From assembly GCA_035275265.1 (NCBI GenBank), contig DATENC010000017.1, positions 6,442 through 70,441 on the forward strand: 64,000 bases of DNA, read 5' to 3'. The stretch is from Burkholderiales bacterium (GTDB lineage: Bacteria > Pseudomonadota > Gammaproteobacteria > Burkholderiales > JACQAP01). The notes under the pieces are model-generated. The model did not search any database. It saw nothing but the letters and a program-made list of their open reading frames with translations, and had not been told where the DNA came from. The position numbers and the translations under genes were made by a program. Numbering within the stretch: the stretch's first letter is position 1; every line of letters starts with the position of its first letter. Below are positions 28,910-36,460 of this stretch, piece after piece.

Positions 28910-29830
28910 ATGCGGCGCCTTTCCTTTTTCGCAAGTCTCGTTATCCAGTTTTTCGCATTGACGGCTCCGGCGGCCGTCGAGGTCATCGACGATCGCGGGG
29001 TCGTCCTGCGCCGCGATTCACCCGCACAGCGGGTCGTTGCGCTCGCGCCGCATCTGACCGAGCTGGTCTTCGCCGCCGGCGCCGGCAATCGTCTGGTCGG
29101 AAAGGTGCGAGGCAGCGATTTTCCGCACGGGGCGCTCACCCTTGCAGAAGTCGGCGACGCCGCGGGACTCGACTTCGAGCGCATCCTGGCATTGCAACCT
29201 GACCTGGTGCTGGCGTGGGGCAGCGGCAATCGCATGGTGGATGTGGAACGTCTGGAGAGGCTCGGGTTGGCTGTGCTGGTACTGGAGCCGCGTCGTCTAG
29301 AGGACATCCCGCGGCATTTGCGAATGCTCGGCATGTTGCTGGGGGACGGCGGGCGCGGACATGCTGCGGCGCTGGCCTTTGCCTTGCGCACAGACCGGCT
29401 GCGCGAGCGCTACGGTGGAAAACCTGCTGTGAGCGTGCTGTTCGAGGCGTGGCATCAACCGCTGATTACCGTCAACGGCGAGCATCTGATCAGCGACGTA
29501 CTGCGGCTCTGCGGTGCGCGCAATGCCTTTGCCGATCTGACGCAACTGGCCGCCGCCGTGTCGCCGGAACAGGTGCTGGCCAGGGACCCGGATGCCATCA
29601 TTATCGGATCCGAAGCCGATGACGCCGGGTCACAAGGCTGGAGGCGTTATCCCTATCTCAAGTCGGTGCGGGCGGAGGCAATATTCTCGGTCTCCGCCGA
29701 TCTCATCACGCGGCAAACGCCGCGCGTTCTCGATGCCGCGGAAAAGATCTGCGCGGATCTCGATACCGTCAGAAGCAGAAGCCCACCTCTCCCCGTCCCT
29801 CTCCCCCAAAGGGCGGAGAGGGTGAAGTAG
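28910..29830 (+). CDS. btuF: Cobalamin-type periplasmic binding protein (BtuF-like)
   Basis: AQRVVALAPHLTELVFAAGAG, DFERILALQPDLV, ADLITRQTPR. Confidence 0.75.
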   Translation: MRRLSFFASLVIQFFALTAPAAVEVIDDRGVVLRRDSPAQRVVALAPHLTELVFAAGAGNRLVGKVRGSDFPHGALTLAEVGDAAGLDFERILALQPDLVLAWGSGNRMVDVERLERLGLAVLVLEPRRLEDIPRHLRMLGMLLGDGGRGHAAALAFALRTDRLRERYGGKPAVSVLFEAWHQPLITVNGEHLISDVLRLCGARNAFADLTQLAAAVSPEQVLARDPDAIIIGSEADDAGSQGWRRYPYLKSVRAEAIFSVSADLITRQTPRVLDAAEKICADLDTVRSRSPPLPVPLPQRAERVK

Positions 29831-29898
29831 CAAAGCGCACAGCAGTCAAACATGTTCTCGGCGCCCTCTCCACGCTAGTGGAGAGGGCGGGGGTGAGG
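29786..29898. repeat. Inverted pair of REP-like CCCTCTCC...GGAGAGGG hairpin elements between convergent genes
   Basis: Hairpin 1: 29797-29804/29815-29822. Hairpin 2: CCCTCTCCAC-GCTA-GTGGAGAGGG 29864-29887, followed by CGGGGGTGAGG. Confidence 0.75.
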
Positions 29899-30615
29899 TC
29901 AGGTTTCCACCAACGGGCCGGCGAACAGCACCGGGCCGCTAGGTAACCCGGTGGGTGAGCCGCCTGCGGGCTCCACGCTCATCGCCAAGCCCTCGGCCTG
30001 GTCCAGTTTTGCCGCCAGCGGCGCGGGCAGGATCAAACTCTGAATGCCGTGAGTGGTGATCAGGCCCAGCGATACTGGCTTTTGGTCTTCACCCGGCAGC
30101 ATCCAAAGCTCCCATGCGGTGCCAGGGGCCATTTCGGCGTGGACGATGACGCGGATGCGCACGACACGTTTTCCGGATTTTCCGGGTTGCCAGGACACCG
30201 TCATCGCCGGATTCCTGGTCTTCAGGTCGTTCATGACCACAACCATCCTGTTGGCATCGACCGGAACCTGATCCAGACGCGGACCCGCGACCATGATCAG
30301 CAACGCCAGCGCCACAAGCCCGCTGGCGATGGACGAGAAACGCCAGAACCACAGGCTTCCCCAGAATCCCGGCCTGGCCTGACTGACAGGGCGGATTCTG
30401 GACTCGATGGCCTGCCATACGCGTGACGGCGGCTCAAGGTCCGGCAACGCCAACGCCAACGGTGTCAGACGTTTTTCCCAGTCGGCCACCGCACGCCGCA
30501 GCGCCGGGTTCTCCCTCAGGTTGATTTCGAACCGGCGGCGGGCGTGCGCGGACATGGTGCCGAGCACATACTCGGCGGCCAGTTTGTTGCGCAGCTCTTC
30601 GTTTGCGAATTTCAT
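29899..30615 (-). CDS. Anti-sigma factor, RskA-like
   Basis: LAAEYVLGTM, single TM, WELWML, LAMSVEPAGGSPTGLPSGPV. Confidence 0.88.
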   Translation of the reverse strand: MKFANEELRNKLAAEYVLGTMSAHARRRFEINLRENPALRRAVADWEKRLTPLALALPDLEPPSRVWQAIESRIRPVSQARPGFWGSLWFWRFSSIASGLVALALLIMVAGPRLDQVPVDANRMVVVMNDLKTRNPAMTVSWQPGKSGKRVVRIRVIVHAEMAPGTAWELWMLPGEDQKPVSLGLITTHGIQSLILPAPLAAKLDQAEGLAMSVEPAGGSPTGLPSGPVLFAGPLVET

Positions 30616-30645
30616 TTTCGCGATCCGGGTTTCAGCAGGTATCCG

Positions 30646-31212
30646 TCAAATGTCCCGTGCATCGAGGCAGCCTTTAAGGCGTTCCAGCCCGCGGCGAATC
30701 CAGGTCTTCACGGTGCCGAGCGGTTTCTGCATCTGGCGCGCAAGTTCGCCGTGCGAAAGACCGTTGAAGAAAGCCAAAGCAATGCTCTTCTGCTGCTCCC
30801 CGGTCAACTGCTTCATGCATTCCACCAGCGCGCCGGCCTCCATGGACTGCTTGAGCAGTTCCTCCGGACCGGGGGACTCATCCGGAATCGATGCCATCAG
30901 GTCTTCGTGGTCCTCGCCGATTTCGACTTCCCGCGGCCGGCGCAGGAGATCCAGGGCCCGGTTGCGCACAACGGCGGTCATCCATGTCATCGGTGCGCTT
31001 TTCGCCGTGTTGTAACCAGCGGCATTGTTCCAGATATTGATGAAACTCTCCTGCAGCACTTCTTCGGCCCAGTCCCTTCTGCGGGTTATGCGTACCGCAA
31101 CGGCAAACAATTTTGCCGAGCAGTGCTGATACAGCGTCTTGAATGCCTGCTGGTCGCGAAGGGCGCAGCGGGACAGCAAGACGGAGAGTTCATCCGCATC
31201 CATGGCTTTCAC
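30646..31212 (-). CDS. ECF sigma factor (SigK-like)
   Basis: AEEVLQESFINIW, WMTAVVRNRALD, PLGTVKTWIRRGL. Confidence 0.92.
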   Translation of the reverse strand: MKAMDADELSVLLSRCALRDQQAFKTLYQHCSAKLFAVAVRITRRRDWAEEVLQESFINIWNNAAGYNTAKSAPMTWMTAVVRNRALDLLRRPREVEIGEDHEDLMASIPDESPGPEELLKQSMEAGALVECMKQLTGEQQKSIALAFFNGLSHGELARQMQKPLGTVKTWIRRGLERLKGCLDARDI

Positions 31213-31772
31213 GCAGGGTCACCGCGGTTCTTGCCTTTTTGCCAATATACGTCGGTGACGCCGGCGTCACGGTTGAGCACCCGGCAGAGTACAAAAAGCA
31301 GGTCGGAGAGCCGGTTGAGATAGCGCTGCAAAGCCGGGGACAACGGCTCCGCGGCGACAAGGCCGACCACCCGGCGTTCAGCCCGGCGGCAAACGGTGCG
31401 TGCCACATGGCACAGCGCGGCTGCGCGCGAGCCGCCCGGGAGGATGAATTCCTTGAGCGCGGGGAGATCGGCGTTGAACCCGTCAAGCACGCCTTCCAGT
31501 CGCGCGACATGCGAATCCTCGATGCTGGTGTAACCCGGGATGCTGAGTTCACCGCCCAGGTCGAACAAGTCGTGCTGCACGTCGAGCAGGCAGCGGTGCA
31601 CTGCTTCTGCCAATGTTTCGGCGAGCAGCACGCCGATGGCACTGTTCAGTTCGTCCACTGCACCGATGGCCTCGATGCGCAGACTATTTTTGGATACGCG
31701 CAAACCGTCGCCGAGTCCGGTGGTGCCGGCGTCGCCGGTGCGGGTGTAGATCTTGGTCAGGCGGTGACCCAT
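31209..31772 (-). CDS. ATP:cob(I)alamin adenosyltransferase, PduO type
   Basis: KIYTRTGDAGTTGL, GAVDELNS, ARTVCRRAERR, YLNRLSDLLF. Confidence 0.95.
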   Translation of the reverse strand: MGHRLTKIYTRTGDAGTTGLGDGLRVSKNSLRIEAIGAVDELNSAIGVLLAETLAEAVHRCLLDVQHDLFDLGGELSIPGYTSIEDSHVARLEGVLDGFNADLPALKEFILPGGSRAAALCHVARTVCRRAERRVVGLVAAEPLSPALQRYLNRLSDLLFVLCRVLNRDAGVTDVYWQKGKNRGDPA

Positions 31773-31859: not shown

Positions 31860-32849
31860 TCAGCGTTGCGGTAGCGCAGTCGAGCGGGGATCGCCGCCCA
31901 GTTCCTCGATCTCGAGTTGCAGGTATCTATGCAGCGCGTTTTGCCGGTGGGTCGTCGCATACATGGCCCAGGCGGCGTAGGCAGGCAGTGCGGCATTGTC
32001 CACCGATTCGAGCAGGCTCGAGCTTCTGGCGTACAGCGCCTTGATCTTCTGATCGAGGTCGCGCAGATAGTCCGCAGTGGAACGGATCGCTTCCGGGCCG
32101 GACACCGGGCCGTGCCCGGGGACCACTCGCTTCACCGGCAGGTTTCGCAGCATGTCGAGTGCCCGTGTCCAGCCTTCGAAATCACAGTCGCGGATCTCGG
32201 GAATACGGTTCAGCGCCACCATGCCGCCGCCAAACAACGTGCCGGTCGCGCGGTCGAACACCGCGAGGTCACCCGGCGTACTTGCCCAGCCCAGGTAAAT
32301 CAGCTCGAGCATCCGGCCGCCCGCCTCGATCGCCGAGCTTCCGGTCACCTGCCGCTGGGGCAGTACCAGCCGGGTGCCCTCGAGCTCATTGCCGAGAACC
32401 GGGCGCAGGTTTTCAAGGCAGTGTGCGCAGCGCGCTTTCATCAACGCCGTGGTTTCGCTGTGCGCGACGATTGAAACGCCGCGTTCCTCGAATGCGGCGT
32501 TACCGAACAGGAATTCCTGCACCGCGTGAGTGATTACCACCAACTCGACCGGCTTGGCCGTCACGCGCCCGACCGCTGCCAGCATCCGCCGGCCGTGGCG
32601 ATACGAGATGCCGGTATCGATTACCACCACACCCGTGGGACCGACGATGAAGCCGCTGTTGCCCACGTCGCCGCGATTTGCTGCAGAGATCTCGCCGGTG
32701 TCGGCGACGAATGCGTATACGCCGTCGGCAACCATTTGCGGTCTGAGTTCGTCTGCGGCCCGGGCCGGGCAGGCGACTAATAGCGAAAGCGCAAGCAGGT
32801 GAAGCGCAACCTTGGCGATTCGCGCCGCGATGCTCCGAACGGAAATCAT
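31860..32849 (-). CDS. Exported SoxH-like MBL-fold protein with degenerate metal ligands
   Basis: GNSGFIVGPTGVVVIDTG and VPGHG present; HxHxDH replaced by THAVQEF; contains RCAHCL. Confidence 0.75.
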   Translation of the reverse strand: MISVRSIAARIAKVALHLLALSLLVACPARAADELRPQMVADGVYAFVADTGEISAANRGDVGNSGFIVGPTGVVVIDTGISYRHGRRMLAAVGRVTAKPVELVVITHAVQEFLFGNAAFEERGVSIVAHSETTALMKARCAHCLENLRPVLGNELEGTRLVLPQRQVTGSSAIEAGGRMLELIYLGWASTPGDLAVFDRATGTLFGGGMVALNRIPEIRDCDFEGWTRALDMLRNLPVKRVVPGHGPVSGPEAIRSTADYLRDLDQKIKALYARSSSLLESVDNAALPAYAAWAMYATTHRQNALHRYLQLEIEELGGDPRSTALPQR

Positions 32850-32955
32850 GTGCAAGCAAATCCCGACCAAAGCACTTACCGTAATCGACTCCTGCAGCGC
32901 GGGCAAGGGCAAAAAGATTCTGTTCTAATGGCCCGGTGCACAGCCGAGGAAAGGC

Positions 32956-33900
32956 ATGAATCGGATCAAGGGTACGACCTCCATGCTGGTCACGGTGGTG
33001 GTCGCAATCGCGCGGACGTCGATCGCGGCGGAGCCTGCGCAGATCGGGAATTTCGAGGTGACTGAGGTTGCCCCCGGGAACTATGTGCACTATGGCACCT
33101 TCGCTGAACGTTCGCCGGGGAACCTGGGCGACAACGCCAACATCGGTTTCATCGTCGGGCAGCGCTGCGTGCTGGTAGTGGACGCGGGGGGATCGCTTTC
33201 AGTCGGCCGGGCGCTGAAAACGGCGATCAGAAGGGTTACGCAAACCCCGATATGTCACGTGGTGCTGACACACGTGCATCCGGATCATTTTTTCGGTGCT
33301 GCCGCTTTCCTCGATGACGGAGCGCAATTCGTCGCGCACCGGAACTATCCGCGCCAAATCGCCGCCCGAGCGCGGTCTTACCTCAATTATTTGCGGCGCG
33401 ATCTGGGCGCATTTGCTGATGGCAGCGAAATTGTGCAGCCGACGCTGCTGGTCACGGACAGGCTCGAACTCGACCTCGGCGGCAGAACCGTGGTGGTGCA
33501 GGGGTGGCCGCCGGCGCATACCGACGACGATCTCACGGTCTTCGACCGGGCGACGCGCACCTTCTGGCTGGCAGACCTCTTGTTCGTGGACCATACGCCG
33601 GTTATCGACGGCACCATTACCGGCTTTCTTGCGGTGATGGACGATCTGCGCAAGGTCGATGCCGTGCACTACGTTGCCGGTCACGGGTACTCCCGGACAC
33701 CGTGGCCGCAGGTTCTGGAAGCGCAGCGGCGTTATTTCAGCGTGATCCTCGAGGAAACACGCACAGCCATCAGGGACAGAAAAACAATCCAGCAGGCCAC
33801 CGACGAGGTCGGTCTTTCGGAGGCGAAAAACTGGGCTGCCTTCGACACCTTCCACCGCCGCAATGTAACCACCGCCTATACAGAGCTCGAGTGGGAATGA
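32956..33900 (+). CDS. Quinoprotein-relay-system zinc metallohydrolase (SoxH-like, type 2)
   Basis: GDNANIGFIVG, THVHPDH, AHTDDDL, VAGHG, C-terminal AYTELEWE. Confidence 0.8.
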   Translation: MNRIKGTTSMLVTVVVAIARTSIAAEPAQIGNFEVTEVAPGNYVHYGTFAERSPGNLGDNANIGFIVGQRCVLVVDAGGSLSVGRALKTAIRRVTQTPICHVVLTHVHPDHFFGAAAFLDDGAQFVAHRNYPRQIAARARSYLNYLRRDLGAFADGSEIVQPTLLVTDRLELDLGGRTVVVQGWPPAHTDDDLTVFDRATRTFWLADLLFVDHTPVIDGTITGFLAVMDDLRKVDAVHYVAGHGYSRTPWPQVLEAQRRYFSVILEETRTAIRDRKTIQQATDEVGLSEAKNWAAFDTFHRRNVTTAYTELEWE

Positions 33901-33973
33901 GTGGCTCGATGCCGTGAAGCGTTGGGGTATACTTCCCACGGACTTGTCAGAAAGAATTCGAGGGAGAGCGCGG

Positions 33974-34810
33974 ATGAAAAGCGCGAAGAATGGGGTCGCC
34001 GCGTTGTTGTCGGCGTTGGTGTTCGTGCTACCCGCGCTCGCGAACGAAAAAGCCGAGCCGGATCCGGCCCAGAGTCCCTACTGGGAGCCGATCAGGATAT
34101 TGATATTCGGCGACCGGGTGATCAACCCCGATAACCGGGACGTGATCCGCGTCTATCTCAACCGGCGAGCCGACGATGCGACGACCGTTCCCGTGGCTGT
34201 GAAGTCGCAGATCGATCAAACCGACAAGGACTACATCAAGTCGATCTACCTGATTGTCGAACGCAACCCGTCTCCGACGGCTGGTGTATTTCACTTCACC
34301 CCCTCCAGTGGCCGCGCCCAGGTCGAGACCCGTCTGCGCTTCGAGGACTTCAGCTTCGTTCGTGCGGTCGCGGAAATGAATGACGGAAAGCTTTACATGT
34401 CGCAACGCTGGGTGAAGGCGGCCGGGGGTTGTTCAGCGCCCAATGCGAAGAACTTCGTGCCGGAGGCGTTGCTCGGGAAAATGAAGGTGCGTTTCGATGA
34501 CGATTCCGTCACCTACGGCAAACCCAATCTGGTGCAACTGATGATCCGCCATCCGAACGAATCAGCGTTGGCGGCGGACTTCGATGGGGAGAAGGTGCCG
34601 CAGTTCGTGCGCAGCGTGAAAGTTTCTTTCGATGGCAGGCCGGTGATGGATGCGGAGGTGGATTTCTCCATATCGGACAATCCCAACTTCCGTTTCTTCT
34701 TTAGTCCGCTGGACAGGGGCGAGTTGAAAATCGAAGTGGAAGACACCCACGACCGCAAATTCATCCATTCGCTGCCGATCAGCGAGGGCGCTTCGCTTCC
34801 CGGGGGTTGA
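33974..34810 (+). CDS. Quinoprotein dehydrogenase-associated fused SoxYZ-like carrier
   Basis: Signal peptide; SoxY-like IVERNPSPTAGVF...VKAAGGCSAP; SoxZ-like MIRHPN, SISDNPNFRF. Confidence 0.82.
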   Translation: MKSAKNGVAALLSALVFVLPALANEKAEPDPAQSPYWEPIRILIFGDRVINPDNRDVIRVYLNRRADDATTVPVAVKSQIDQTDKDYIKSIYLIVERNPSPTAGVFHFTPSSGRAQVETRLRFEDFSFVRAVAEMNDGKLYMSQRWVKAAGGCSAPNAKNFVPEALLGKMKVRFDDDSVTYGKPNLVQLMIRHPNESALAADFDGEKVPQFVRSVKVSFDGRPVMDAEVDFSISDNPNFRFFFSPLDRGELKIEVEDTHDRKFIHSLPISEGASLPGG

Positions 34811-34907: not shown

Positions 34908-35240
34908 ATGAAATTCCGCATCCTCGCCATGGCTGGTCTTGTCGCCGCATTGGCGTCGGTAGCGGCACCGTTGCTCGCTGAAGGCGATCCCACGGCAGGC
35001 AAGAACAAAACCACCATGTGTGCCGGTTGCCACGGCATTGCCGGGTTCCGCGCCGCGTATCCCGAGACCTACCAGGTTCCAAAGCTTGGTGGACAGAACC
35101 CCGCGTACATCGTCGCCGCGCTGAAGGCCTACAAGGCCGGTGAGCGCAATCATGCGACCATGAAAGCAATCGCCTTCAGCCTCACTGAACGGGACATGGC
35201 TGATCTCGCCGCGTACTACGCTGGAACCGGCAAGAACTAA
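34908..35240 (+). CDS. Monohaem class I cytochrome c (c4/c553-like)
   Basis: Signal peptide, CAGCH, PKLGGQNPAY, distal Met (ATMKAIA). Confidence 0.92.
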   Translation: MKFRILAMAGLVAALASVAAPLLAEGDPTAGKNKTTMCAGCHGIAGFRAAYPETYQVPKLGGQNPAYIVAALKAYKAGERNHATMKAIAFSLTERDMADLAAYYAGTGKN

Positions 35241-35268
35241 GCCCGCACAAGACGCGAAACAGAAAAAC

Positions 35269-35595
35269 ATGAACCGCTTGTTGATTGCGATCATTGTCCT
35301 CACGGCTCTTGCGCTCAGTGGGGGCACCCTTGCCGCGGATGCGGCGGCAGGGAAGGAAAAATCCCAGTTGTGTGCGGGCTGCCATGGCCCAGACGGAAAT
35401 ACGCCGATGATGCCGGAGTATCCCAAGCTGGCGGGACAACCCGCCGATTACCTGGAAAAGGTATTGCGTGACTACAAGAAGGGTGCGCGCAAGAACCCGA
35501 TGATGATGCCCATGGCGCAGGGGCTTTCCAAACGGGACATCAAGGACCTGGCTGCCTACTATTCGAGCCTGAAAGGCGATCTGAAGGTCAAGTAA
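35269..35595 (+). CDS. Monohaem class I cytochrome c (c4/c553-like)
   Basis: Signal peptide, CAGCH, PKLAGQPADY, NPMMMPMA. Confidence 0.92.
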   Translation: MNRLLIAIIVLTALALSGGTLAADAAAGKEKSQLCAGCHGPDGNTPMMPEYPKLAGQPADYLEKVLRDYKKGARKNPMMMPMAQGLSKRDIKDLAAYYSSLKGDLKVK

Positions 35596-35678
35596 AGGTA
35601 ATTGCGGGCACGCATCCAAGAAACAGAGGCGCCGTCGGCCACTTTTCTTGTCTGAATCAGAATCGATAGACTGTATTG

Positions 35679-36107
35679 CTATCCAAGCTTGCGGCGAATG
35701 CAGTCGAGATACGCCACTTCATCCGGCGCAGCGTGATCGCGCTGCGCTTGCCATATCGTTTCTCCCAGACATTCCAGCAGCACGTGCAGCGCGTCGTGCT
35801 CGAGTTGCGCGTGAGTCAGAAGCTGCGCATACAGCCCGCGAATTCCGCGCGGCTGGTCGATCGAGATCTGCTCGGCGAGTGCAAGATGCAGCGATAGATG
35901 AAGGAATGGATTGAGCTCGCTGCCTTCGGGACCAAAATCGCGGCCGATACTGTGGTCTTCGCTATCAAGCAAAGTCTGGTATTCCGGGTGCAGCAGTACC
36001 ACTTCGAGCGCGGTTTTTTCCAATCCTTCCAGCGGCGCCTGCATGCGGTACTTGCGCCAGCTTTCGAAGAAGAAACGGCGCACGTCTTCGCGCGACGGAT
36101 TGAACAT
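35679..36107 (-). CDS. DUF1841 family protein
   Basis: MFNPSREDVRRFF, LHPEY, NPFLHLSLHLAL.EQ.SIDQP. Confidence 0.88.
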   Translation of the reverse strand: MFNPSREDVRRFFFESWRKYRMQAPLEGLEKTALEVVLLHPEYQTLLDSEDHSIGRDFGPEGSELNPFLHLSLHLALAEQISIDQPRGIRGLYAQLLTHAQLEHDALHVLLECLGETIWQAQRDHAAPDEVAYLDCIRRKLG

Positions 36108-36115
36108 GAGGGCAA

Positions 36116-36143
36116 GTATGAAGGATGAAGCATGAAGGCGGAA
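36116..36143. repeat. Degenerate heptamer tandem repeat (G(G/C/T)ATGAA x3-4)
   Basis: GTATGAA GGATGAA GCATGAA GGCGGAA. Confidence 0.55.
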
Positions 36144-36460
36144 GCCAGGGCGTTCCACGGGCAGATGCAGTAGGCAACGGAGATGGTGAGTGCCATCGCG
36201 AGCGTCCTTTTTTCAGCCAGATTAAGTTGAACGCCCCGATCCATTCTCAATCGGCATAACGCGCAGGGAATACCGGTCAATTCTCCGGATGGCGGCAACG
36301 GCCTGTTGGGACATGGTCCATTCGGACTACCTCGATTCTGTCGGCAATACACAAATTGCGCTCATCGTGGGCGTCCAACCGCGAGCAAAGTTGCTTGATT
36401 GGTCTGAACTTCAGACCACTGTTTATGGACGCGTCGTAATGAATTGCAAATAGGGAAAGA

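What the first reader, a model, noticed from the sequence alone, without database searches (positions are those of the whole stretch)
32956..34810. Periplasmic 'quinoprotein relay' (SoxH-like hydrolase plus fused SoxYZ carrier) without Sox catalytic genes
Seen: an intact MBL gene followed by a SoxY-SoxZ fusion with an internal GGCSAP swinging-arm Cys; no soxA/X/B/C/D in the window. Established: SoxYZ tethers sulfur substrates on that Cys, and these variant families are known by association with PQQ dehydrogenases but are biochemically uncharacterised to my knowledge. Inference: the carrier tethers a dehydrogenase product or intermediate (e.g. an aldehyde thiohemiacetal or acyl thioester) that the MBL releases, or it helps form the vicinal disulfide of the dehydrogenase.
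Basis: partly seen in the sequence, partly recalled or inferred. Interest (0 to 1): 0.6.

Follow-up and report, generated by a model that had tools for sequence, protein, structure and literature searches.

The report
Relocated XoxF-linked cysteine carrier and hydrolase
These genes encode an exported one-cysteine carrier protein and a zinc hydrolase that accompany rare-earth-dependent methanol dehydrogenases in many bacteria; the pair is already catalogued, and what the cysteine carries has never been measured.

Summary
32956-33900 encodes an intact MBL-fold hydrolase (TIGR04559, 365 bits, cut-off 280). 33974-34810 encodes a fused SoxY-SoxZ carrier (TIGR04557, 212 bits, cut-off 140) whose GGCSAP cysteine aligns with the SoxY arm cysteine.

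A third member lies divergently at 31860-32849. It is an MBL paralogue that has lost HxHxDH, as have all 28 homologues examined. The two cytochromes c downstream are housekeeping neighbours, not part of the set.

This is a relocated copy of the catalogued "quinoprotein relay" set (P. putida PP_2677/PP_2678), which papers already discuss with the same untested ideas. This scan has met it in at least 15 other genomes.

The host is an uncultured soil Burkholderiales methylotroph. Elsewhere it has xoxFGJ with a second carrier paralogue but no hydrolase, so the hydrolase pair here probably serves both carriers.

Among 151 genomes of the order, all 29 with a XoxF/MxaF-type methanol dehydrogenase homologue carry both the carrier and the hydrolase.

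The chemistry is unknown. I favour, weakly, a sulfur adduct on the cysteine that the hydrolase removes. A one-carbon or aldehyde adduct is the main rival.

Verdict: an ordinary new member of a known, biochemically untested kind. Interest is low to moderate.

The parts
31860..32849 (-). Degenerate MBL-fold paralogue (non-catalytic partner, 'hydrolase 1'-like), exported
   Evidence: It scores 218.6 bits against TIGR04558 (cut-off 300) and 224.5 bits against TIGR04559 (cut-off 280), below both. THAVQEF replaces HxHxDH and WASTPGD replaces AHTDxD, while GHG is kept. All 28 homologues aligned lack HxHxDH, and so do 7 further loci from four other families. The signal peptide was read by eye.
32850..32955 (.). 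106-nt divergent intergenic region between the two MBL genes (presumed promoters)
   Evidence: The sigma-70 consensus scan found no match here. No operator was identified.
32956..33900 (+). Intact periplasmic di-metal MBL-fold hydrolase (TIGR04559, quinoprotein relay zinc metallohydrolase 2; SoxH-like)
   Evidence: 365.4 bits against a cut-off of 280. Metal ligands H106 H108 D110 H111 H188 D207 H243 are invariant, as are C71, C100 and the C-terminal E310/E312-W313-E314 (…ELEWE). The AF2 model has pLDDT 91.5. The best fold matches are 8D2Z, chlorothalonil dehalogenase, CphA and alkylsulfatase SdsA1.
33974..34810 (+). Fused SoxY-SoxZ-like single-cysteine carrier (TIGR04557); the ORF is also open from the GTG at 33914
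   Evidence: 212.3 bits against a cut-off of 140, with Pfam SoxY and SoxZ. A Shine-Dalgarno GGGAG lies 7 nt before the ATG at 33974. The AF2 model has pLDDT 85.8 and shows two beta-sandwich halves. The halves match SoxY and SoxZ chains with TMt 0.76-0.86.
34430..34432 (+). Codon of the invariant carrier cysteine (GGCSAP)
   Evidence: It aligns with the arm Cys of SoxY 4uwq_B. It is invariant in the 36-row alignment, and the GGCSA[PA] motif is present in 75 of 77 carriers. It sits in a loop whose 10-residue block has mean pLDDT 58.

Best explanation
The two genes, together with the divergent degenerate MBL gene at 31860-32849, are a relocated copy of the catalogued 'quinoprotein relay' accessory set of lanthanide-type PQQ alcohol/methanol dehydrogenases (XoxF). 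All three proteins appear to be exported.

Proposed mechanism:
- The carrier presents one invariant cysteine on a flexible loop between its SoxY-like and SoxZ-like halves.
- A small group becomes covalently bound to that cysteine.
- The intact di-zinc hydrolase removes it by hydrolysis and regenerates the thiol.
- The paralogue that has lost its metal ligands acts as a non-catalytic partner.
- This genome has two carriers (one here, one at the end of the xoxFGJ cassette on another contig) but only this one hydrolase pair, so the hydrolase serves both carriers in trans.

My favoured cargo, held weakly, is a sulfur species (persulfide or S-sulfonate). That would make this a truncated Sox-like cycle that keeps reactive sulfur off, or removes it from, the PQQ/vicinal-disulfide site of XoxF.

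Shown: gene identity, motifs, predicted folds, distribution and co-occurrence. Inferred: periplasmic location (signal peptides read by eye), the existence of a covalent adduct, hydrolytic release, the role of the degenerate paralogue, and the cargo.
For: Identity:
- HMM scores are over the curated cut-offs.
- The Cys aligns with the SoxY arm Cys.
- The Cys is invariant in a 36-row alignment and GGCSA[PA] is present in 75 of 77 carriers.
- The Cys loop is flexible in a confident model.
- The hydrolase has intact, invariant metal ligands.

Link to XoxF:
- The dehydrogenase next to the paralogous carrier scores 964 bits to XoxF 6DAM and has WDFDG and a vicinal Cys-Cys.
- In 151 genomes of the order that are at least 90% complete, 29 have a XoxF/MxaF-type homologue (46-86% identical; 25 at 63% or more). 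All 29 have a fused carrier and a TIGR04559 hydrolase over cut-off.
- The carrier lies within 10 kb of xoxF in at least 13 of them.

One hydrolase pair for two carriers. The same split layout occurs in G057.

Sulfur cargo:
- Homology to SoxYZ and SoxH.
- A bona fide SoxC (570 bits, cut-off 420) plus a cytochrome follow directly behind hydrolase-carrier in one genus.
- A rhodanese-domain protein (PP_2666) is named with the pair in P. putida, and thiosulfate inhibits methanol growth of H. denitrificans (PMC12997753).
- MBL-fold alkylsulfatases are among the better fold matches, and no glyoxalase II appears among the 50 rows listed.
Against: - No experiment bears on the cargo.
- The genus with the SoxCD operon also has a canonical soxY-A-B cluster elsewhere, so SoxCD may serve that one instead.
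- The conserved neighbours elsewhere are one-carbon genes: xoxFGJ, NAD-formate dehydrogenase in Methylococcales, and fhcC/fhcD in other Burkholderiales (PMC11237559).
- That paper notes the fused clades include bacteria that cannot oxidise thiosulfate or do so only with other substrates, and argues for a carbon role.
- RB-TnSeq in P. putida showed minimal phenotypes, though without lanthanides (PMC12997753).
- Fold similarity to sulfatases is generic MBL similarity.
- This copy has no dehydrogenase, rhodanese or SoxCD beside it.
Confidence: 0.4

Rival explanations
1. One-carbon or aldehyde cargo. The carrier thiol adds to formaldehyde (or another aldehyde) made by XoxF in the periplasm. The thiohemiacetal is oxidised by the lanthanide PQQ enzyme to a thioester, and the MBL hydrolase releases formate or the acid. 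This would be a periplasmic, protein-thiol analogue of glutathione-dependent formaldehyde oxidation.
For: - Strict co-occurrence with XoxF/MxaF-type homologues.
- The hydrolase-carrier pair lies beside NAD-formate dehydrogenase in about 9 of 30 Methylococcales loci, and beside fhcC/fhcD in 4 Burkholderiales loci.
- The same association is published as SoxYZ-S4 with fdhAB and xoxF (PMC11237559).
- In Rhodobacter sphaeroides and a Roseobacter, soxH sits between adhI (glutathione-dependent formaldehyde dehydrogenase) and xoxF5 (PMC5934484).
- The MBL superfamily includes thioesterases (glyoxalase II; established knowledge).
Against: - The hydrolase scores 23 bits to GloB (cut-off 200.8), and no glyoxalase II is among the 50 Foldseek rows listed.
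- A protein loop would have to reach the buried PQQ site.
- No partner specific to thioester chemistry recurs.
- Neighbourhood with C1 genes shows which pathway the set serves, not what it carries.
Confidence: 0.2
2. Maturation or repair factor. The carrier cysteine forms a mixed disulfide with XoxF/PedH-type enzymes to make or restore their strained vicinal Cys-Cys disulfide, or to stabilise or repair PQQ, without any turnover cargo.
For: - The XoxF here and at least six other PQQ dehydrogenases of the genome have adjacent cysteines.
- The idea is in the literature, together with a thioredoxin-like gene in the M. extorquens operon (PMC12997753).
- The set is restricted to genomes with such enzymes.
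Against: - It gives no role to a hydrolase whose di-metal site is invariant.
- P. aeruginosa ExaA has the disulfide but lacks the set (PMC12997753).
- A single-cysteine protein cannot by itself oxidise a dithiol.
Confidence: 0.15
3. SoxB surrogate. In this genome, which has soxX-Y-Z-A but no detectable soxB, the SoxH-like hydrolase releases sulfate from the canonical SoxYZ, so the module belongs to thiosulfate oxidation proper.
For: - SoxB was not found in a 98.95%-complete genome, while soxXYZA is present.
- 15 of 37 genomes of the genus lack a SoxB match, while 34 of 37 have SoxA.
- A SoxB-replacing role for SoxH was proposed for Sulfurimonas CVO, as cited in PMC11237559.
Against: - The hydrolase is equally present in congeners that have SoxB. 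For example, G020, G015 and G051 have both.
- Across the order the hydrolase tracks XoxF, not Sox.
- It is encoded next to the fused carrier, not next to soxYZ.
Confidence: 0.1

Closest known systems
'Quinoprotein relay' set of NCBIfam: TIGR04557 SoxYZ-like carrier with TIGR04559/TIGR04558 zinc metallohydrolases (e.g. P. putida KT2440 PP_2677/PP_2678 beside pedH; M. extorquens AM1 META1p1703-1705 near xoxFGJ; PMC12997753)
   Same: - Both proteins pass the curated cut-offs.
- The hydrolase and carrier genes are adjacent and co-oriented.
- The carrier has the family's GGCSAP cysteine.
- The genome has a lanthanide-type PQQ dehydrogenase.
- The function is untested, as in every other member.
   Different: - There is no PQQ dehydrogenase, XoxG/PedF cytochrome or MoxJ-like binding protein beside this copy.
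- The set is split: xoxFGJ-protease-carrier 1 lies on another contig, and the hydrolase pair plus carrier 2 lie here.
- The carrier belongs to a divergent clade on a long stem.
- The second MBL is below both family cut-offs and lacks the metal ligands.
Fused SoxYZ clades S2 and S4 of Ca. Thiodiazotropha and methanotroph symbionts (PMC11237559)
   Same: - The SoxY-SoxZ fusion.
- A neighbouring soxH-like gene.
- Association with PQQ alcohol dehydrogenase, or with xoxF and fdhAB.
- A proposed role in carbon rather than sulfur energy metabolism.
   Different: - I did not place this carrier in their tree, so which clade it belongs to is untested.
- The host is a soil betaproteobacterial lineage.
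Canonical SoxYZ with SoxB/SoxAX/SoxCD (Paracoccus pantotrophus, Thermus thermophilus; PDB 2ox5, 4uwq)
   Same: - The same two folds.
- The cysteine is at the homologous position after Gly-Gly.
- A hydrolase is encoded as a partner.
   Different: - The two chains are fused, so the cysteine lies in an internal loop rather than on a free C-terminal GGCGG arm.
- Scores are below the SoxY and SoxZ cut-offs (64.6 against 125; 52.3 against 76).
- The partner hydrolase is an MBL, not the SoxB 5'-nucleotidase-type enzyme.
- There is no SoxAX beside it.
SoxH of sox clusters (Paracoccus pantotrophus; periplasmic MBL of unknown role; my own knowledge and PMC11237559)
   Same: - An exported MBL-fold protein encoded with a SoxY-type carrier.
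- Its function is unknown.
   Different: - It belongs to a separate family model (TIGR04559).
- It tracks XoxF rather than SoxAXB.

Membership tests
[quoted passage not shown] | Whole-protein HMM score over the curated cut-off | tested here: met
   212.3 bits against a cut-off of 140.
[quoted passage not shown] | SoxY and SoxZ halves in one chain, with the conserved internal Gly-Gly-Cys | tested here: met
   Pfam SoxY covers residues 65-173 and SoxZ covers 199-285. GGCSA[PA] is present in 75 of 77 carriers, and the Cys is invariant in the 36-row alignment.
[quoted passage not shown] | Encoded beside a PQQ-dependent dehydrogenase | tested here: not met
   There is no PQQ dehydrogenase within about 110 kb on the contig. 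The paralogous carrier on C25 does sit in an xoxFGJ cassette.
Quinoprotein relay system zinc metallohydrolase 2 (TIGR04559) | HMM score over the cut-off and a complete di-metal ligand set | tested here: met
   365.4 bits against a cut-off of 280. HxHxDH, H188, D207 and H243 are invariant.
Quinoprotein relay system zinc metallohydrolase 1 (TIGR04558), for the gene at 31860-32849 | HMM score over the cut-off; zinc ligands | tested here: not met
   218.6 bits against a cut-off of 300. HxHxDH is replaced by HAVQEF, and H196-type and D221-type ligands are lost. I did not test whether true TIGR04558 members are intact.
Canonical thiosulfate-oxidation carrier SoxY/SoxZ (TIGR04488/TIGR04490) | Scores over the cut-offs; free C-terminal GGCGG arm; separate chains | tested here: not met
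   64.6 against 125 and 52.3 against 76. The Cys is internal and the chains are fused.
Sox multienzyme system | soxAX, soxB (and soxCD) encoded with the carrier | tested here: not met
   None lies beside it. soxXYZA is on contig C26. [quoted passage not shown] No close SoxC was found.
Glyoxalase II / hydroxyacylglutathione hydrolase (TIGR03413) | HMM score over the cut-off | tested here: not met
   23 bits against a cut-off of 200.8. None appears among the 50 Foldseek rows listed.
Quinoprotein relay set | Export to the periplasm | not testable with these tools
   N-terminal signal-peptide-like segments with Ala-x-Ala sites were read by eye in all three proteins. No predictor was available.

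The most novel reading that the evidence does not exclude
The carrier is the thiol of a periplasmic, glutathione-independent formaldehyde/aldehyde oxidation cycle. XoxF oxidises the carrier-bound thiohemiacetal to a thioester and the MBL hydrolase releases formate. This would explain why lanthanide-type enzymes can take methanol through to formate, and why the set tracks XoxF, formate dehydrogenase and fhc genes.
Probability: 0.15. Interest if true: 0.85.

Novelty: new member of a known kind. Interest (0 to 1): 0.3.

Why it matters
What the invariant cysteine of this widespread XoxF companion carries is a real open question in methylotrophy and lanthanide biochemistry.

This locus does not make the question more testable than the homologues in tractable hosts such as P. 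putida and M. extorquens. It does add three points:
- Strict genome-level co-occurrence with XoxF/MxaF-type homologues in one order (29 of 29).
- A recurring split layout in which one hydrolase pair must serve two carriers in trans.
- Evidence that the second MBL of the set is a conserved pseudo-enzyme.

Tried and rejected
1. I first read the two cytochromes c downstream (34908-35595) as part of an operon that gives the module its own electron outlet. I rejected this.
   - The cyt-cyt-DUF1841 trio stands on its own in at least 10 genomes that have no module at that site.
   - DUF1841 is present in 134 of 151 genomes.
   - The pair resembles a split cytochrome c4.

2. I took the conserved synteny with BtuF, the ECF sigma factor, its anti-sigma factor and PduO as possible regulation. 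It is lineage synteny only. It is lost in G161 (L098) and partly lost in L042.

3. I took SoxCD behind the carrier in genus g8 as proof of sulfur cargo. I weakened this, because those genomes also have a canonical soxY-A-B cluster.

4. Foldseek on the whole carrier model returned mostly spurious two-domain beta-sandwich matches such as transglutaminase. Only the single-domain SoxY and SoxZ matches are meaningful.

5. Promoter and terminator scans gave nothing above chance.

6. No model coordinates were available to the scripts, so I could not inspect the active-site pocket.

7. I did not use the search for homologous proteins, the search of protein representatives or the protein atlas, because the families were already identified.
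Full report
**What is there**

The window is contig C17:6442-70441 of a 4.38-Mb, 98.95%-complete genome. Its nearest relatives are uncultured soil Burkholderiales MAGs.

The ORF at 32956-33900 (+) encodes a 314-aa MBL-fold protein.
- It scores 365.4 bits against TIGR04559, "quinoprotein relay system zinc metallohydrolase 2", cut-off 280.
- Its HxHxDH motif and the later His, Asp and His ligands are intact, and they are invariant in 30 homologues.
- Two cysteines (C71, C100) and the C-terminal residues E310, E312-W313-E314 (…ELEWE) are also invariant.

The next ORF encodes a SoxY-SoxZ fusion.
- It scores 212.3 bits against TIGR04557, cut-off 140.
- The likely start is the ATG at 33974, behind a GGGAG, rather than the GTG at 33914.
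- The GGCSAP cysteine (codon 34430-34432) aligns with the arm cysteine of SoxY in 4uwq.
- GGCSA[PA] is present in 75 of 77 carriers from Burkholderiales and Methylococcales, with two outliers reading GACSAP and GACAAP. The cysteine is invariant in the 36-row alignment.
- The AlphaFold model is confident (pLDDT 85.8). The block around the cysteine drops to 58, which suggests a mobile loop.
- The two halves match solved SoxY and SoxZ chains.

A third member lies divergently at 31860-32849. It is an MBL paralogue that falls below the cut-offs of both relay hydrolase families.
- THAVQEF stands in place of HxHxDH, and WASTPGD in place of AHTDxD.
- All 28 homologues aligned lack HxHxDH, including those in complete xoxF cassettes. 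So do seven further loci from four other families.
- The degenerate motifs are themselves conserved, so this looks like a conserved pseudo-enzyme and not a decaying gene.

**What does not belong**

I first counted the two small cytochromes c at 34908-35240 and 35269-35595 as part of the operon. They follow the carrier in about 25 related MAG species.

- The gene after them, DUF1841, is present in 134 of 151 genomes of the order.
- The cyt-cyt-DUF1841 trio stands alone in at least 10 genomes where no carrier or hydrolase is at that site.
- The cytochromes resemble the two halves of cytochrome c4.

They are neighbours, not members. The upstream genes (PduO, ECF sigma factor, anti-sigma factor, BtuF) are likewise lineage synteny, and are lost in G161.

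**Context in the genome**

- The genome has about ten PQQ dehydrogenases.
- The best of them, on contig C25, is a XoxF. It scores 964 bits to 6DAM and has the WDFDG aspartate and a vicinal Cys-Cys.
- It heads a cassette of sigma-54 regulator, xoxF, cytochrome, MoxJ-like protein and trypsin-like protease, ending in a second fused carrier that is 49% identical to the window's.
- That cassette has no MBL. The only relay-type MBLs in the genome are the two in the window.
- fhcD lies 25 kb from xoxF.
- pqqB, pqqC and pqqE lie about 19 kb downstream of the finding in the window.
- The same split layout recurs in G057 of another family.
- Module-only loci of the window type also occur in G027 and G161.
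- In the carrier tree the window's type forms a clade with full support, on a long stem, nested among Burkholderiales carriers.
- In 24 other genomes sampled from the genus, 22 have the family, mostly as two fused copies.

The simplest reading is that the hydrolase pair moved away from xoxF together with a duplicated carrier, and now serves both carriers in trans.

**Distribution**

I sampled 151 genomes of the order, all at least 90% complete.

| Feature | Genomes |
|---|---|
| Fused carrier | 42 |
| TIGR04559 hydrolase over cut-off | 37 (36 of these also have a carrier) |
| XoxF/MxaF-type homologue (E ≤ 1e-150; 46-86% identical, 25 of them ≥ 63%) | 29 (all 29 have both carrier and hydrolase) |

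- The 29 homologue-positive genomes span 14 families.
- One genome, G049, is unpublished. Without it the counts are 41, 36 and 28.
- Related genomes are not independent, so these are counts and not a test.
- The carrier lies within 10 kb of xoxF in at least 13 genomes.
- Six carriers without a cut-off-passing hydrolase still have a weaker MBL hit beside them.

Other contexts:
- NAD-formate dehydrogenase lies beside the pair in about 9 of 30 Methylococcales loci.
- fhcC/fhcD lies beside a hydrolase-carrier-carrier unit in 4 Burkholderiales loci.
- DUF3280 recurs in xoxF cassettes.
- In one genus a bona fide SoxC plus a cytochrome follow directly behind the carrier. That genus also has a canonical soxY-A-B cluster elsewhere.

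**Literature**

- The same families are PP_2677 and PP_2678 in the P. putida ped cluster, next to the lanthanide enzyme PedH.
- A 2026 review calls them uncharacterised. It names a rhodanese-domain protein (PP_2666) with them and reports minimal RB-TnSeq phenotypes without lanthanides. It offers disulfide formation, cofactor stabilisation or protection of PQQ from sulfur nucleophiles as ideas (PMC12997753).
- Fused SoxYZ clades next to PQQ-ADH plus soxH, or next to fdhAB plus xoxF, were described in 2024 with a proposed carbon role (PMC11237559).
- H. denitrificans has the fusion and SoxH in a PQQ enzyme cluster (PMC11582611).
- soxH sits between adhI and xoxF5 in R. sphaeroides (PMC5934484).
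- This scan has met the set in at least 15 other genomes.

**Mechanism**

What the sequences support is a covalent carrier with an obligatory hydrolytic partner, tied to lanthanide-type PQQ dehydrogenases. The cargo is not determined.

| Reading | Weight | Main grounds |
|---|---|---|
| Sulfur adduct | ~0.4 | Homology; SoxCD and rhodanese partners; a fold nearer to alkylsulfatases than to glyoxalase II |
| One-carbon/aldehyde adduct | ~0.2 | The C1 neighbourhoods |
| Maturation or repair of the XoxF disulfide or PQQ | ~0.15 | Leaves the hydrolase unexplained |
| SoxB surrogate for the genome's SoxB-less soxXYZA | ~0.1 | But the hydrolase is equally present in congeners that have SoxB |

**Verdict**

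This is a new member of a known but biochemically untested kind. Its own features are the relocation away from xoxF, a duplicated carrier and a pseudo-enzyme partner. Interest is 0.3.

Noticed in passing
window 34908-36158: Two monohaem cytochromes c (each like one half of cytochrome c4) lie convergent with a DUF1841 gene. This trio is conserved across the order, independently of the carrier module. DUF1841 is in 134 of 151 genomes.
   Followed up: yes
G000:C26:746-748 kb (L017 9032-11324): soxX-soxY-soxZ-soxA is present with no soxB anywhere in a 98.95%-complete genome. In the genus, SoxA is found in 34 of 37 genomes and SoxB in only 22 of 37, so a subclade appears to run a SoxB-less Sox set. 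Unpublished genome G182 is among those counted.
   Followed up: partly
G000:C12:77-81 kb (L016 7368-11224): A second carrier-MBL pairing exists in the same genome: a SoxY-related 'AACIE arm' protein, a SoxZ and an AiiA-like MBL-fold lactonase homologue, directly after a molybdopterin (xanthine-dehydrogenase-family) oxidoreductase.
   Followed up: no
L094 359-4068 and L101 (genus g8): An operon of relay hydrolase, fused carrier, bona fide SoxC (570 bits) and a c-type cytochrome occurs in XoxF methylotrophs. Their canonical soxY-A-B cluster, on another contig, showed no SoxC among the matches I saw.
   Followed up: partly
window 32956-33900: The hydrolase has two invariant cysteines (C71, C100) and invariant C-terminal residues E310, E312-W313-E314 (…ELEWE) across Burkholderiales and Methylococcales. 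Neither feature is explained.
   Followed up: no
window 28910-31772: BtuF-like binding protein, RskA-type anti-sigma factor, ECF sigma factor and PduO-type cobalamin adenosyltransferase lie upstream. They are syntenic with the module within the clade but not in G161, so they are probably unrelated.
   Followed up: partly
L015 7361-7837, L093, L100, L102, L049, L050: A DUF3280 (DUF2380) protein of about 176 aa recurs next to carriers in xoxF cassettes of several families, including this genome's C25 cassette. No database names it as a member of the set.
   Followed up: partly
G000:C19:6259-8511: One PQQ dehydrogenase of the genome is followed directly by c4-like cytochrome domains. These are the closest paralogues (58% and 46% identical) of the window's two cytochromes.
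   Followed up: no
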